From the sequence record NC_100371.1: a DNA stretch of 64,000 nt, one strand, 5' to 3'. The notes beneath the pieces were generated by a model. The model made no database searches. It was given only the letters and a program-made list of their open reading frames with translations, and was not told the DNA's origin. Below, piece by piece: positions 10,650 to 14,918 of the stretch. Position 1 is the stretch's first letter. Every line of letters begins with the position of its first letter. Source of the DNA: a phage. Position numbers and translations under genes: made by a program.

Positions 10650-11741
10650 TTAGATAAAACGCTTGAACATAGAAGGTGATGAGATTGATGGAATCACACA
10701 AGGCAGCGCTACCTCCTCTTTCTCCAGGAAATTAATCGCAGAAGCTACACAGTCGGCCCAGTCGTCTTTTCTGTTAAATGTTGATCTTTCCCCGTTGAAC
10801 TTTTCAAGTTCAGTCAGAAATGCTTCCAGAGTGTCAGGATGGAAACTGGATTTTACAATCCTCACCATTCCTTGTTGGGCAAGATTGGCAAAAGGTGAGA
10901 ACCTTGTCAGTTTAGATTTGTTGGAAGGCATTGGATCTTCTTCAACCCTGAACCCTTCGGCGAGCAAGGATCTGGACGAGGTTAAGAATTCACTCTTACC
11001 TGCCTGACCGGGGTCCACAGAAAATACGATTATGCAATCATCTCCATCAAACTGCGCCTGTTTCCTGATGATCACATCTCGTTCCCCAGCCTTTTTACAG
11101 AACTTACCTTCCAGACCTGTGGAATACCTACCGTCATCCACGTTCTCAGGACAATAATCTCCGGACAGGTAATAAAAGCCGTCGCTATCTTTACTTACCT
11201 TAACACTGGCGGTAAAGTCAGGAAATTTATTACCGGAAGTTCTCTCGGTTCCTGCTTTATCCCATGCCCTGCAAGATACTGATCCAAGAGGTACTCTATC
11301 GGCATCACGAAGGAAAGATCTTTGGAAATAGTTTGCACCCTCAGGTTTGGCAAACCAGTTGCCATGAAGAAGCTGGGCTTTTTCAAGCTCTGGCAGACCT
11401 TCAAGGAAAGCAAGGTATTCTGGGTTGTCTCTCAAGCAGACAGGGTTATCGAAAATTGTTGCTCCTATAAACGAGAATGACAACGGTCTTGGCTTGATCT
11501 CCACACCCAGTCCGTTAACCGTGGTGTATTTCTCTATTAACTCTTCTTTAGAGTCTCCCCAAATAAATTCACCGTCGCGTCGGATAAAATATCTTTTCTT
11601 ACCACATTTCTCCGGATCTGGATACCCTTCATCGTCCAACCACCACCTGACCAGTTTGGCAAGCATGTGTTCTGAGTCGGGGTTACAACTGATAACCATT
11701 CTTGATGGATACTTTGACTGAGATCGCAGACGAGACATCAA
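10650..11741 (-). CDS. terL: terminase large subunit, C-terminal part (exon 2, nuclease domain)
   Basis: Begins ...MVISCNPDSEH (ATPase coupling motif) and continues through a nuclease-like domain; frame is open upstream to about 11774 (TTQFEWEQIDYL). Confidence 0.7.
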   Translation of the reverse strand: MMSRLRSQSKYPSRMVISCNPDSEHMLAKLVRWWLDDEGYPDPEKCGKKRYFIRRDGEFIWGDSKEELIEKYTTVNGLGVEIKPRPLSFSFIGATIFDNPVCLRDNPEYLAFLEGLPELEKAQLLHGNWFAKPEGANYFQRSFLRDADRVPLGSVSCRAWDKAGTERTSGNKFPDFTASVKVSKDSDGFYYLSGDYCPENVDDGRYSTGLEGKFCKKAGERDVIIRKQAQFDGDDCIIVFSVDPGQAGKSEFLTSSRSLLAEGFRVEEDPMPSNKSKLTRFSPFANLAQQGMVRIVKSSFHPDTLEAFLTELEKFNGERSTFNRKDDWADCVASAINFLEKEEVALPCVIPSISSPSMFKRFI

Positions 11742-11774
11742 ATAGTCTATCTGCTCCCATTCGAATTGCGTCGT

Positions 11775-12651
11775 TTATGTTCGGGCAAGGTCGCTAGTCT
11801 TGCCCCGCCATTTTCAGGCAGCTGCATGTCTCCATGCAGACCAGACTATATCTTATGAATGTGCAAATACTCTGCTGCTCTAAGAATGGTTTCCTCATCC
11901 TCTTGGAAGAAACCTAAAGCTCTGTTGCATTTATCACAAAGCAACCCTCTTACAGCACCAGTTTTATGGTCATGATCAACACAAAAGAAATCTCTGTACC
12001 CTTGCGTCCTATACTCATCAAGAGATATTCTACAAATGGCACACTTATGATCTTGATCTGAGAGTAAGCGATAGTATTCATCTTTTGTTATGTGAAATTT
12101 CTTCTCAATCTGATAAAACTTTTCACACATCTTACACCTGTTCGTAACCAGATACACTTTACCATAGTCACGTTTTGTGTAAAAACTATCAGCAAGCATA
12201 CTTTCATGACAAGATTTACATTCAAAAAGCTCACCTTTCTTCAGTAAGTCTTGAATAAAAGATGCTGCATCATCTCTCTTAACCATATTTTTGTTTCTAC
12301 GAGATCCATTCTTCCTGTAGTACATATAGCATTCCTTGCATGTACCGGAGTATCCATCCTTGCTCTTAGATGATAAAAAGAAATCATCAAGAGGTAGAAC
12401 TCTTTGGCAATCCATACATTTTTTAGTATTACACATTCACCCTCCCGTTTCGAATCGCTTGATTCTACGTCTTTCGACTAGTCGTTGAACGTTCATCCTT
12501 TCGGATGCTTCGCTGCGGATTATCTAAATTAACACACTGTTACCATACCTTCGATCTCTCTTCGAAGCCTCTATCATGTTACCATGACAGGTTGGTGGTG
12601 TCAATAATAAAGATTTCCCCGCAATTAGGGAGGTTTTACGAGAGCTACAAA
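11775..12651 (-). mobile_element. putative group I intron (with homing endonuclease ORF) interrupting the terminase large subunit gene
   Basis: About 0.9 kb separates the two TerL parts; exon 1 ends GGU followed by in-frame UAA; contains HNH ORF 11846-12436; boundaries approximate. Confidence 0.5.
11846..12436 (-). CDS. HNH homing endonuclease (Endonuclease VII family)
   Basis: 196 aa; N-terminal Cys-rich zinc finger (CMDCQ...CKEC) and C-terminal CVDHDHKTGAVRGLLCDKCN motif. Confidence 0.75.
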   Translation of the reverse strand: MCNTKKCMDCQRVLPLDDFFLSSKSKDGYSGTCKECYMYYRKNGSRRNKNMVKRDDAASFIQDLLKKGELFECKSCHESMLADSFYTKRDYGKVYLVTNRCKMCEKFYQIEKKFHITKDEYYRLLSDQDHKCAICRISLDEYRTQGYRDFFCVDHDHKTGAVRGLLCDKCNRALGFFQEDEETILRAAEYLHIHKI

Positions 12652-13080
12652 TTAACCCTCATCGAAGCAAACCATGGTGTACTCAAGTCCTTGATGGTTA
12701 AGCTTATCTTGGACATACTCCATGTGGCAGTATTTTACAACAGCTCCTTTTTTGCTCCTGTCCCACTTGCCAGTGCTCGGATCAAACCGTGGAAAAATAA
12801 ACTTATGATCCTTCTCTCTGAACTTTGGTTTAATGTTTTCAGGCAGATCACTGTAAATAGCTACTGCTTTAGGCCATAGCCCACCCTCACCTTCCAACTG
12901 TGGAGTTGTTCTTCGGAACATAACCACAGAGCTGTGTGGGTCATCAATAATTTTAAGCGGCATCAACTGCAGGAGGAACGACTTACCTGACCCAGCCGCA
13001 CCACCAATGACAAGAATGTCTGCATCGTTTTCCAGGATCATCTTCTGCTTTTCAGAACACGGTCCGTAAATCTTAGACAT
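12652..13080 (-). CDS. terL: terminase large subunit, N-terminal ATPase part (exon 1)
   Basis: Walker A GGAAGSGKS, Walker B-like MVCFDEG immediately followed by a stop codon. Confidence 0.75.
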   Translation of the reverse strand: MSKIYGPCSEKQKMILENDADILVIGGAAGSGKSFLLQLMPLKIIDDPHSSVVMFRRTTPQLEGEGGLWPKAVAIYSDLPENIKPKFREKDHKFIFPRFDPSTGKWDRSKKGAVVKYCHMEYVQDKLNHQGLEYTMVCFDEG

Positions 13081-13367
13081 TAACCTCTCTCCTTTGGAAA
13101 CAGTGTTCTAATATAGTCTTGCAAAATGATCAATTTAGCCCTATCATTACTGCAAGACAGGTTATTATCCCTCATAATGCCAGAATTCACCGCATCAGGC
13201 GCACCTTTCTTTAAAGGTATAGCTTTAGCAGGAGGCTTCATAGCACCCTCGGGAGGTTTAACAATCAACCTTCCTACATCCGGAGGGTCAATCTTGTATT
13301 CTCTCTCAACGCTGGTTGCACACCCACACAATAACAAGCACAAAACAACCAGTGCAGTAACTCTCAT
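13080..13367 (-). CDS. o-spanin (Rz1-like outer-membrane lipoprotein)
   Basis: Signal peptide with lipobox-like LLCGC, Pro-rich mature region, 95 aa, start overlaps stop of upstream i-spanin. Confidence 0.55.
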   Translation of the reverse strand: MRVTALVVLCLLLCGCATSVEREYKIDPPDVGRLIVKPPEGAMKPPAKAIPLKKGAPDAVNSGIMRDNNLSCSNDRAKLIILQDYIRTLFPKERG

Positions 13368-13762
13368 CGAACCTCCTGATTGATACTCTCATTATAAATA
13401 TCTATTAGCTGATCAGGAAGTGTTGACTTCTTACCTTCAGGAGATTGGAGGTAGATAATCTGCTTTTCTTTGCCTGCCTTCTCAGCCATATTTAATTTAT
13501 CCTGTAGATCAGAAAGAGATTTTTCAAGGTTTTTAACCTCCTCTGCGTGGCCCATTTTAATTTTGTCGGCCTGCTTTTGTTGTTGGTCAAGGATCCGTTC
13601 CCACTTTAACTCTGTTGCTGACACACCTTCTTGATAAGCATCATTGAGCTTAGAGTTAAACCAATACACGGCCCCAAGATAAGCCATACCTATAGCCGCT
13701 GCAAAAACTAAACCTTTTATGATCCCTCTGTGTTTACTCATCAATGTTAAAACTGAAATCAT
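13364..13762 (-). CDS. i-spanin (Rz-like)
   Basis: N-terminal transmembrane helix (LVFAAAIGMAYLGAVYWF) followed by charged coiled-coil region, 132 aa. Confidence 0.55.
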   Translation of the reverse strand: MISVLTLMSKHRGIIKGLVFAAAIGMAYLGAVYWFNSKLNDAYQEGVSATELKWERILDQQQKQADKIKMGHAEEVKNLEKSLSDLQDKLNMAEKAGKEKQIIYLQSPEGKKSTLPDQLIDIYNESINQEVR

Positions 13763-14428: not shown

Positions 14429-14527
14429 GGTGCTAGGTGATGGAATCGAACCATCTATGTATTCAACGACTACCTCGTCTATTTTCAGGATTAAAAATCC
14501 TCGCCCTTGCCAAAGGGCTTACCTAGC
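14429..14527 (-). tRNA. atypical tRNA-like gene (99 nt; anticodon loop reads UUU; possibly degenerate or insert-containing)
   Basis: perfect acceptor GCTAGGT/ACCTAGC, D-arm GCCC-TTTGGCAA-GGGC, canonical T-arm GATGG-TTCGATT-CCATC, but about 30 nt between anticodon arm and T-arm. Confidence 0.4.
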
Positions 14528-14830: not shown

Positions 14831-14918
14831 TGGTGGTGAGTGATGGAGTCGAACCACCCGAATCGCAATGATAACAGATTTACAGTCTGCCCCGCTACCC
14901 CTACGGAATTAACTCACC
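14831..14918 (-). tRNA. tRNA-Tyr (anticodon GUA), type II
   Basis: acceptor GGTGAGT/ACTCACC, anticodon arm GCAGA-CTGTAAA-TCTGT, long variable arm, T-loop TTCGACT, CCA encoded. Confidence 0.7.

What the first reader, a model, noticed from the sequence alone, without database searches (positions are those of the whole stretch)
10650..13080. Large terminase gene split by a 0.9-kb intervening sequence carrying an Endo VII-type HNH endonuclease (putative self-splicing group I intron)
ORF 12652-13080 encodes only the TerL ATPase N-terminus (Walker A GGAAGSGKS, Walker B-like MVCFDEG) and then hits a stop. ORF 10650-11741 encodes the rest (ISCNP coupling motif, nuclease domain), and its frame is open upstream to about 11774 (TTQFEWEQIDYLMSRL). 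Between them sits an HNH gene (CVDHDHKTGAVRGLLCDKCN). Exon 1 ends in U (GGU|UAA), as a group I 5' splice site requires, and the three pieces are in three different frames. Splicing would restore ...MVCFDEG-TQFEWEQIDYL... Packaging would then depend on RNA splicing or on a two-piece terminase.
Basis: partly seen in the sequence, partly recalled or inferred. Interest (0 to 1): 0.7.

Follow-up and report, generated by a model that had tools for sequence, protein, structure and literature searches.

The report
Known group I intron in rV5-type terminase

Summary
It is not new.

- **The split gene.** On the minus strand, TerL exon 1 (13080-12655) ends in GGU. It is followed by an 883-nt group I intron (12654-11772, terminal G at 11772) and then exon 2 (11771-10650).
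- **The intron RNA.** It matches Rfam Intron_gpI at 47.9 bits (curated cut-off 50; E 4e-9 over the whole window). A relative carries the same intron without the ORF (phage HMD-6) and scores 81.4 bits.
- **The endonuclease gene.** A 196-aa Endo VII-type HNH gene (12436-11846) replaces the P8 loop.
- **The splice product.** Joining the exons gives a 515-aa TerL that is 515/515 identical to the uninterrupted TerL of phage SYGMH1. That fixes both splice sites to the base.
- **Allele states.** Among about 118 Vequintavirus records, about 66 have no intron, 23 have the ORF-less intron and 29 have the intron with the ORF.
- **Prior work.** Kropinski et al. 2013 (rV5, section "Introns in terminase"), the LL12 genome announcement and the BASEL GenBank records (joined CDS plus "putative homing endonuclease") already cover it. 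A terL intron six bases upstream in Certrevirus phage CB7 was shown to splice by RT-PCR.

Splicing of this particular intron has not been shown experimentally. Interest is low.

The parts
12655..13080 (-). TerL exon 1 (142 codons; Walker A GGAAGSGKS, Walker B MVCFDE; last codon GGT ends in the U required at a group I 5' splice site)
   Evidence: ORF list. Pfam Terminase_6N positions 2-104. Junction fixed by intron-less alleles.
11772..12654 (-). Group I intron, 883 nt, subgroup IA-like (P7.1 and P7.2 hairpins present). It starts with an in-frame UAA (12654-12652) and ends with the terminal G at 11772.
   Evidence: Rfam RF00028 at 47.9 bits, E 4.2e-9. ORF-less allele at 81.4 bits. Boundaries from intron-less alleles. 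99.9% of 801 pair cells are paired, with 6 compensatory pairs across 9 alleles.
12638..12647 (-). Internal guide sequence (3' strand of P1, UAGCUCUCGU). It pairs with exon bases AUGAGGGU plus intron bases UA. G12645 forms the U.G wobble with the last exon base, U12655.
   Evidence: cmscan alignment. Direct reading. P1 is 10/10 paired in 9 alleles.
12441..12633 (-). 5' part of the catalytic core: P3 5' strand, P4, extended P5 (P5a-c), P6/P6a, P7 5' strand (GACUA), P7.1, P7.2 and P3 3' strand (GGGAGG, which also serves as the Shine-Dalgarno sequence of the endonuclease gene)
   Evidence: cmscan alignment. Helix-by-helix pair counts.
11846..12436 (-). Intron-encoded Endo VII-type HNH homing endonuclease gene, 196 aa, occupying the P8 loop. 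Its AUG lies in the 5' strand of P8 and its stop codon UAG (11848-11846) lies in the 3' strand of P7. The N-terminal half carries two Cys-x2-Cys...Cys-x2-Cys modules.
   Evidence: Pfam PF02945 E 2.1e-21. PDB Hpy99I E 1.6e-5 and T4 Endo VII E 7e-4. Alignment with ORF-less alleles.
11772..11855 (-). 3' part of the core: J8/7 (AUAAGAUA), P7 3' strand (UAGUC, 11848-11844), P9, P9.1, P9.2 and tail ...AUAAACG ending in the terminal G
   Evidence: cmscan alignment of the ORF-less allele. Pair counts. Direct reading.
10650..11771 (-). TerL exon 2 (373 codons plus stop): the rest of the ATPase domain (TQFEWEQIDYLMSRLRS, VISCNP) and the RNase H-like nuclease domain
   Evidence: Terminase_6N positions 110-211, Terminase_6C..

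Best explanation
The window comes from an rV5-like coliphage (genus Vequintavirus). Its large terminase gene is interrupted, immediately after the Walker B motif (DEG|TQF), by a mobile group I intron.

Proposed mechanism:
- The gene is transcribed as one pre-mRNA.
- The intron RNA folds into the group I core: P1 with a U.G wobble at the 5' splice site, the P3-P7 pseudoknot, P4-P6, P7.1/P7.2, P8 and P9-P9.2.
- It excises itself by the two guanosine-initiated transesterifications. The exons are joined into a 1548-nt reading frame encoding a normal 515-aa TerL.
- Ribosomes that reach unspliced RNA stop at the UAA formed by the first three intron bases.

The intron's P8 loop holds a 196-aa Endo VII-type HNH endonuclease gene. 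This is most likely a homing endonuclease that cuts intron-less terL alleles of co-infecting relatives and spreads the intron by recombinational repair.

Shown here: the ribozyme core, the exact exon-intron boundaries, identity of the conceptual product to intact TerL, and presence/absence polymorphism among relatives.

Inferred: that splicing really occurs and is autocatalytic; that the endonuclease is active and targets the intron-less site; and that its translation competes with ribozyme folding, because its Shine-Dalgarno sequence is the 3' strand of P3, its AUG lies in P8 and its stop codon lies in P7.
For: (1) Rfam Intron_gpI matches 11822-12664 (-) over the full model at 47.9 bits, E 7.9e-11 locally and 4.2e-9 for the window. 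The same intron without the ORF in phage HMD-6 scores 81.4 bits against a cut-off of 50.

(2) Joining 12655 to 11771 gives 1548 nt / 515 aa. This is 515/515 aa identical to the uninterrupted TerL of SYGMH1, 514/515 to FFH2 and 513/515 to JeffSchatz, all of which are also 1548 nt.

(3) The exon-junction query aligns in one uninterrupted piece to intron-less relatives.

(4) All 12 intron-bearing alleles read (the window plus 11 relatives) end exon 1 in GGT. All 8 intron-less alleles read have GGC. This fits the requirement for U at a group I 5' splice site.

(5) A hand-drawn P1-P9.2 structure including the P7 pseudoknot is 99.9% paired across 9 alleles. It has 6 pairs changed on both sides (P5a x2, P5b x1, P8 x3), against 0-1 in the slid controls.

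(6) The split lies inside a single Pfam domain, with Terminase_6N positions 2-104 in exon 1 and 110-211 in exon 2.

(7) The HNH ORF matches PF02945 at E 2.1e-21 and resembles Hpy99I and T4 Endo VII.

(8) Three allele states exist in GenBank Vequintavirus records: about 66 without the intron, 23 with the ORF-less intron and 29 with the ORF-bearing intron. This is the pattern expected of a homing element.

(9) Precedent:
- The rV5 paper describes terL introns (PMC3606486).
- The rV5 and BASEL GenBank records annotate joined CDSs.
- RT-PCR with Sanger sequencing showed splicing of the terL intron of Certrevirus phage CB7 (PMC7344957). That intron lies 6 nt upstream of this site and also matches Intron_gpI.
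Against: - The window's own copy scores 2.1 bits below Rfam's curated gathering score, because of the penalty for the roughly 590-nt ORF in P8.
- No RNA data exist for this phage or for any Vequintavirus in what I could find. Splicing is inferred.
- P10 is weak: at most 3 bp (exon ACR with intron UGU), offset by one base.
- No P2 helix is evident.
- The alleles are about 97% identical and the structure was drawn from these same sequences, so the covariation evidence is modest and not independent.
- Endonuclease activity and target site are untested.
Confidence: 0.93

Rival explanations
1. Two-piece terminase. The two terL ORFs are translated separately and assemble into a working enzyme without RNA splicing. 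The HNH gene is a free-standing insertion between them.
For: Many GenBank records annotate two separate 'terminase large subunit' CDSs. Exon 2 has a possible TTG/ATG start at 11741/11738.
Against: - The break is inside one ATPase domain.
- No Shine-Dalgarno sequence lies at a usable distance from the internal start (direct reading).
- A complete group I core occupies the gap.
- Removing exactly 883 nt recreates a TerL identical to intact homologues.
- Residues TQFEWEQIDYL, upstream of the internal start, are conserved as coding sequence in intact homologues.
Confidence: 0.02
2. The intron is a decaying or splicing-impaired ribozyme. It needs a protein cofactor (host or phage factor, or the HNH protein acting as a maturase), or it splices only partially and so throttles terminase production late in infection.
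For: The ORF's ribosome-binding site, start codon and stop codon sit in P3, P8 and P7, so translation could disturb folding. P10 is weak and P2 is absent (direct reading). In CB7, one HNH-associated intron in another gene did not splice under the conditions tested.
Against: - All core helices are intact and conserved, with compensatory changes.
- The phages carrying this intron are viable laboratory isolates, e.g. the BASEL phages.
- Endo VII-type HNH proteins are not known maturases (established knowledge).
Confidence: 0.04
3. Inactivated gene. terL is a pseudogene disrupted by a mobile-element insertion, and packaging is provided from elsewhere.
For: None beyond the interrupted reading frame.
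Against: - Exon sequences are under full purifying selection: 515/515 aa identical to an intact homologue despite 24 nucleotide differences.
- 52 phage records, most of them from named isolates, carry the intron.
- I did not search the rest of the window for a second terminase gene, so its absence is not tested.
Confidence: 0.01

Closest known systems
terL introns of Escherichia phage rV5 (Kropinski et al. 2013, Virol J 10:76, PMC3606486; GenBank DQ832317 CDS 'ORF64ABC', joined from 3 pieces)
   Same: Same genus. Same insertion site (after DEG, GGT|ACR). The intron core is nearly identical over the 216 of 218 bases it covers of the window's 5' core (98.6%).
   Different: In rV5 this intron is the 319-nt ORF-less form with a different P8 hairpin (AAGCG/CGCUU instead of GAAUG/CAUUC). 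rV5 also has a second 979-nt intron carrying an unrelated HNH gene, inserted between window positions 11454 and 11453; the window lacks it.
BASEL collection Vequintavirus records (e.g. DrSchubert/Bas50, MZ501060; Maffei et al. 2021, PMC8594841)
   Same: Same 883-nt intron with the same 591-nt endonuclease ORF (96.8% identity). Already annotated as a two-piece joined 'terminase large subunit' CDS with an internal 'putative homing endonuclease'.
   Different: Only point differences, e.g. the first exon-2 codon is ACA rather than ACG. The window is 100% identical in the intron to the unannotated record OX460980.1.
terL group I intron of Pectobacterium phage CB7 (Certrevirus, Vequintavirinae; Buttimer et al. 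2020, PMC7344957)
   Same: Same subfamily and same gene region (Walker B). Matches Intron_gpI at 35.2 bits, carries an HNH ORF, and has a similar P9-P9.2 tail. Splicing was shown by RT-PCR and Sanger sequencing.
   Different: Inserted 6 nt upstream (D|EGTQF rather than DEG|TQF). Its 166-aa HNH protein shows no detectable similarity to the window's.
Group I intron in terL of Lactobacillus delbrueckii phage LL-H (Mikkonen & Alatossava 1995, cited in PMC3606486)
   Same: First described group I intron in a phage large terminase gene, so the same kind of arrangement.
   Different: Unrelated siphovirus of a Gram-positive host. I did not compare sequence or insertion site.
T4 td intron / I-TevI and other subgroup IA phage introns (from established knowledge, not tested here)
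   Same: P7.1/P7.2 extensions, a UAA directly after the 5' splice site, and an endonuclease ORF looped out of a peripheral helix with its translation signals buried in RNA structure. The conserved P6-P7-P3' stretch of the window's core also hits intron-like sequences in Staphylococcus, Bacillus and T7-like phages.
   Different: Different host gene, different ORF position (P8 here), and a different endonuclease family (Endo VII-type HNH rather than GIY-YIG).

Membership tests
Group I intron (Rfam RF00028) | Covariance-model score at or above the curated gathering score (50 bits) | tested here: inconclusive
   The window copy scores 47.9 bits, 2.1 below the cut-off, though E is 4.2e-9 for the whole window. 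The shortfall comes from the roughly 590-nt ORF insertion in P8.
Group I intron (Rfam RF00028) | The same intron lineage without the ORF passes the curated score | tested here: met
   The HMD-6 allele (318 nt; core nearly identical outside P8) scores 81.4 bits, E 5e-20.
Group I intron | 5' exon ends in U, paired as U.G with the internal guide sequence in P1 | tested here: met
   U12655 pairs with G12645, and P1 has 10 bp. 12/12 intron-bearing alleles have GGT and 8/8 intron-less alleles have GGC.
Group I intron | Intron ends in G (the terminal guanosine) | tested here: met
   G11772. The boundary is unambiguous from alignment with intron-less alleles.
Group I intron | Conserved core: P3-P7 pseudoknot, P4-P6 domain, J8/7, P7 guanosine-binding helix | tested here: met
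   P3 has 6 bp, P4 6 bp, P6/P6a 7 bp and P7 5 bp (GACUA/UAGUC); J8/7 reads AAGAUA. All are 100% paired in 9 alleles.
Group I intron | Precise removal restores the host gene's reading frame and product | tested here: met
   515/515 aa identity to the intact SYGMH1 TerL, with the same 1548-nt length.
Group I intron | Guanosine-dependent self-splicing of the RNA | not testable with these tools
   No RNA data. The only experimental support is RT-PCR for the neighbouring-site intron of phage CB7.
Subgroup IA | Extra hairpins P7.1 and P7.2 between the 5' strand of P7 and the 3' strand of P3 | tested here: met
   GUC-GAAA-GAC and GAAUC-AAGC-GAUUC, paired in all alleles. The subgroup assignment is my reading, not a classifier result.
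HNH / Endonuclease VII family (PF02945) | Profile match above the curated cut-off, with the His-Me finger motif | tested here: met
   76.1 bits against a 23.6 cut-off, E 2.1e-21, residues 110-192. DHDH...CDKCN is present. PDB relatives are Hpy99I and T4 Endo VII.
Homing endonuclease (functional class) | Cleaves the intron-less allele near the insertion site and promotes intron inheritance | not testable with these tools
   Only indirect: presence/absence polymorphism of 29 / 23 / about 66 records.
Large terminase, T4-type (Terminase_6N + Terminase_6C) | ATPase domain with Walker A/B plus a C-terminal RNase H-like nuclease | tested here: met
   Terminase_6N matches across both exons (profile positions 2-104 and 110-211), and Terminase_6C matches in exon 2.

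The most novel reading that the evidence does not exclude
The terL intron and its Endo VII-type endonuclease may be more than a passive parasite. It could act as a weapon in competition between co-infecting rV5-like phages. In that reading the endonuclease cuts the GGC|ACG intron-less terL allele of a rival, and the strict GGT (intron) versus GGC (no intron) difference marks target and immunity. The ORF-less form with a swapped P8 would be an 'immune but disarmed' state. The nesting of the ORF's ribosome-binding site, start codon and stop codon in P3, P8 and P7 would time endonuclease production against terminase production. None of this is excluded by the data, but none of it is tested, and the general ideas (the homing cycle, intron-mediated interference, translation-splicing antagonism) are already in the literature for other phages.
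Probability: 0.25. Interest if true: 0.35.

Novelty: already known. Interest (0 to 1): 0.1.

Why it matters
It matters mainly for annotation.

Many GenBank records of rV5-like phages still list two separate 'terminase large subunit' genes, or hypothetical proteins, and a few place spurious small ORFs inside the intron. The exact boundaries given here allow a correct joined CDS: exon 1 ends at T12655, the intron is 12654-11772, and exon 2 starts at 11771.

The three allele states (no intron, ORF-less intron, ORF-bearing intron) occur in more than 100 closely related, culturable coliphages. That makes a convenient natural system for studying intron homing and loss. The element itself is a textbook phage group I intron and raises no new question.

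Tried and rejected
- **Rfam at gathering threshold on the whole window** found only tRNAs. The intron appeared only at the E-value threshold, because the ORF insertion costs score.
- **A second intron in the window.** No other Intron_gpI hit at E <= 0.001. The second terL intron of rV5 and HdK5 is absent here.
- **Group II intron or other RNA families in the gap.** Only chance-level hits, E > 1.
- **Whether the HNH proteins of the three terL introns (window, rV5 intron 2, CB7) are related.** They are not detectably similar.
- **A convincing P10 and a P2 helix.** I found only a 3-bp offset P10 and no P2.
- **Two-piece terminase, pseudogene and free-standing endonuclease readings.** Considered and rejected (see the rival explanations).
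- **Not used:** the large protein-database searches, structure prediction and metagenome scans. The GenBank phage collection and the literature already settled the question.
Full report
**What is in the sequence.**
All features lie on the minus strand. The ORF list shows:
- a 142-aa ORF at 13080-12652 (MSKIYG...VIGGAAGSGKSF...MVCFDEG, then TAA);
- a 196-aa ORF at 12436-11846 (...FCVDHDHKTGAVRGLLCDKCN...);
- a 363-aa ORF at 11741-10650, whose frame stays open upstream to 11774 (TTQFEWEQIDYLMSRL...).

The three are in three different frames. Pfam places the first ORF on positions 2-104 of Terminase_6N. It places the third on positions 110-211 of the same 215-position model, followed by Terminase_6C. 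The middle ORF matches Endonuclease_7 (PF02945, 76 bits, E 2.1e-21). The neighbours are a Mu-type portal gene downstream (10547-8991, Pfam match) and two small ORFs upstream (13080-13762) that relatives annotate as spanin genes. The interruption falls in the middle of the ATPase domain, directly after Walker B.

**Where the window comes from.**
A 3-kb query around the locus is 96% identical to many Vequintavirus (rV5-like) coliphage genomes. The intron and its ORF are 100% identical to the unannotated record OX460980.1.

**Is there a ribozyme?**
At Rfam's gathering threshold the window gives only tRNAs. At the E-value threshold the group I intron model RF00028 matches 12664-11822 end to end at 47.9 bits. 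The E-value is 7.9e-11 locally and 4.2e-9 for the whole 64 kb. That is 2.1 bits under the curated 50, because a roughly 590-nt insertion, the HNH ORF, sits in the loop of P8. Phage HMD-6 carries the same intron without the ORF (318 nt), and it scores 81.4 bits, E 5e-20.

Reading the sequence against the model alignment gives the following helices:
- **P1:** exon AUGAGGGU plus intron UA pairs with intron UAGCUCUCGU. The last exon base U12655 forms a wobble pair with G12645.
- **P2:** none evident.
- **P3:** CCUCCC / GGGAGG.
- **P4:** UGCGGG / UCCGCA.
- **P5:** an extended arm with three sub-helices.
- **P6/P6a:** closed by a GAAA loop.
- **P7:** GACUA / UAGUC.
- **P7.1 and P7.2:** two short hairpins between P7 and P3', the mark of subgroup IA.
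- **P8:** GAAUGUG...CACAUUC, enclosing the ORF.
- **J8/7:** AUAAGAUA.
- **P9, P9.1, P9.2:** present.
- **Tail:** ...AUAAACG, ending in G11772.

I wrote this structure, including the P7 pseudoknot, onto an alignment of nine alleles (ORF interior removed) and counted pairs.
- 99.9% of 801 cells are standard pairs.
- Six pairs change on both sides: two in P5a, one in P5b and three in P8.
- Sliding the partners by 1-3 columns gives 34-41% pairing and 0-1 such pairs.

The alleles are about 97% identical and the structure was drawn from them, so this is supporting evidence rather than independent proof.

**Exact splice sites.**
A 600-nt conceptual exon junction (300 + 300 nt) aligns in one uninterrupted piece to several sister phages: SYGMH1, FFH2, JeffSchatz, isim, nom, YN3, bov11CS3 and A112b. 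Their terL is a single 1548-nt gene. Joining window 12655 to 11771 also gives 1548 nt. The 515-aa product is 515/515 identical to SYGMH1 TerL, 514/515 to FFH2 and 513/515 to JeffSchatz, and the junction reads GLEYTMVCFDEG|TQFEWEQIDYLM in all of them. Shifting either boundary by one base would not reproduce the intron-less sequence, so the intron is 12654-11772 (883 nt). Its first three bases, UAA, stop any ribosome that reads into unspliced RNA.

**A splice-site polymorphism.**
All 12 intron-bearing alleles I read (the window plus 11 relatives) end exon 1 with GGT. All 8 intron-less alleles have the synonymous GGC. The U is what a group I 5' splice site needs. The strict association also suggests either co-conversion during homing or a difference in endonuclease target. 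I did not test which.

**The endonuclease gene.**
Alignment with ORF-less alleles shows that the two forms are identical up to ...ACGGGAGGGU and again from UAAGAUAUAGUC. Between these points the ORF-less form has a 19-20 nt P8 hairpin (AAGCG-loop-CGCUU). The ORF-bearing form has a different P8 stem (GAAUGUG/CACAUUC) enclosing the 591-nt ORF, and three of the five aligned P8 pairs differ on both sides.

By direct reading, the ORF's translation signals all sit inside core helices:
- its Shine-Dalgarno sequence (GGAGG, four bases before the AUG) is the 3' strand of P3;
- its AUG lies in the 5' strand of P8;
- its stop codon UAG is the first three bases of the 3' strand of P7.

I infer from this that translation of the endonuclease and folding of the ribozyme compete, as established for T4 td/I-TevI (from general knowledge).

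The protein has an N-terminal half with two Cys-x2-Cys...Cys-x2-Cys modules and a C-terminal His-Me finger nuclease. The nuclease is related to restriction enzyme Hpy99I (E 1.6e-5) and T4 endonuclease VII (E 7e-4). The nuclease domain is common in phages (1882 records). The full-length protein is confined to 29 Vequintavirus records at 95% identity or more, and the next-best hits listed are about 30% identical.

**Distribution.**
In the GenBank phage collection:
- 119 records match the exon junction at 90% or more;
- 52 carry the 5' core of the intron;
- 29 carry the ORF;
- 89 have a junction interrupted by at most the short form.

After setting aside one fragmentary record, this gives about 66 intron-less, 23 ORF-less-intron and 29 ORF-bearing-intron records. 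Some are duplicate RefSeq/GenBank entries. This is the pattern expected of the homing cycle: invasion, loss of the ORF, loss of the intron.

**What is already known.**
- Kropinski et al. 2013 have a section "Introns in terminase". It states that rV5 terL is divided into three segments, one intron containing a homing endonuclease, and it thanks D. Shub for locating the intron (PMC3606486).
- The rV5 GenBank record annotates terL as a three-piece join. By my alignment, its first intron is the ORF-less form of the window's intron at the same site. Its second intron (979 nt, with an unrelated HNH) is inserted between window positions 11454 and 11453 and is absent here.
- The LL12 announcement says terL and the DNA polymerase gene are disrupted by predicted introns (PMC6658697).
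- The BASEL records (e.g. MZ501060) annotate this very intron and ORF as a joined terL CDS plus "putative homing endonuclease".
- In the sister genus Certrevirus, phage CB7 has a terL intron that RT-PCR and Sanger sequencing showed to splice (PMC7344957). I located it 6 nt upstream of the window's site (GVD|EGTQF). It matches Intron_gpI at 35.2 bits and carries an unrelated HNH.
- The first terL group I intron was reported in Lactobacillus phage LL-H in 1995 (cited).

**Rivals.**
A two-piece terminase is very unlikely:
- the split is inside one domain;
- no ribosome-binding site serves the internal start;
- the conserved residues TQFEWEQIDYL lie upstream of that start;
- an intact ribozyme fills the gap.

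A pseudogene is excluded by the perfect conservation of the protein despite 24 silent nucleotide differences from SYGMH1, and because most of the records carrying the intron come from named phage isolates. A splicing-impaired or cofactor-dependent intron cannot be excluded without RNA data, but nothing in the core suggests decay.

**Verdict.**
The element is an already described and already annotated mobile group I intron of rV5-like phages. What remains untested is experimental: splicing of this particular intron, and the activity and target of its endonuclease.

Noticed in passing
window 12655-12657 (last codon of exon 1) and the same site in loci L001-L020: Perfect association in 20 alleles. 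All 12 intron-bearing terL alleles (the window plus 11 relatives) end exon 1 in GGT. All 8 intron-less alleles have the synonymous GGC, and also ACG as the next codon. This could reflect co-conversion with the intron, the need for U at the splice site, or resistance of the target site to the endonuclease.
   Followed up: partly
window 11846-12438 versus L002 1462-1481 and L007 2716-2735: The ORF-bearing and ORF-less forms of the intron differ in more than an insertion. The whole P8 hairpin is different, with three of five stem pairs changed on both sides. The ORF therefore arrived or left together with its own P8 stem.
   Followed up: partly
between window 11454 and 11453 (minus strand, inside exon 2, after codon 248): Relatives rV5 (L007 3138-4116) and HdK5 (L003 2448-3426) carry a second, 979-nt insertion here. 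It has a group I intron match (34.9 bits) and a different HNH gene. The window lacks it.
   Followed up: partly
window 14429-14527 (-): ARAGORN calls a 99-nt 'tRNA-???' with a four-base anticodon (atcc), or alternatively tRNA-Gln(ttg) with a 5-nt 'intron', a long variable arm and a weak anticodon stem. Rfam's tRNA model gives 37.5 bits. It sits next to tRNA-Thr, -Met and -Pro. This is possibly a degenerate or unusual type II tRNA.
   Followed up: partly
window 14834-14918 (-): Rfam finds an 85-nt tRNA (39 bits) that ARAGORN does not call. rV5 annotates an 87-nt tRNA-Tyr in its tRNA cluster.
   Followed up: no
GenBank records MG065635-MG065690 (L020): Eighteen records named 'Campylobacter phage' (some flagged UNVERIFIED, host C. 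jejuni) are about 96% identical to this E. coli Vequintavirus. The host labels look doubtful.
   Followed up: no
L002, L003, L009-L014 (GenBank annotations of relatives): Many records annotate the two exons as separate 'terminase large subunit' or 'hypothetical protein' genes. Mangalyan annotates an 81-nt CDS (26 codons plus stop) with a ribosome-binding site inside the ORF-less intron. These annotation errors could be fixed with the boundaries given here.
   Followed up: no
L015 (Pectobacterium phage CB7) 385-1350: The experimentally spliced terL intron of CB7 sits only 6 nt upstream of the window's insertion site (GAU|GAA, inside the Walker B Asp-Glu). It has a similar P9-P9.2 tail but an unrelated HNH gene. 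The Walker B region of Vequintavirinae terL therefore looks like a hotspot for intron insertion.
   Followed up: partly
window 12441-12485 region; one search hits H117-H140: The conserved P6-P7-P7.2-P3' stretch of the core has 75-90% matches in Staphylococcus, Bacillus, Alteromonas, Vibrio and T7-like phages (e.g. next to an 'endonuclease VII' gene in Pectobacterium phage Jarilo). It also matches elsewhere in the genome of the terL-intron-less phage SYGMH1 (40261-40311). This points to related introns in other genes.
   Followed up: no
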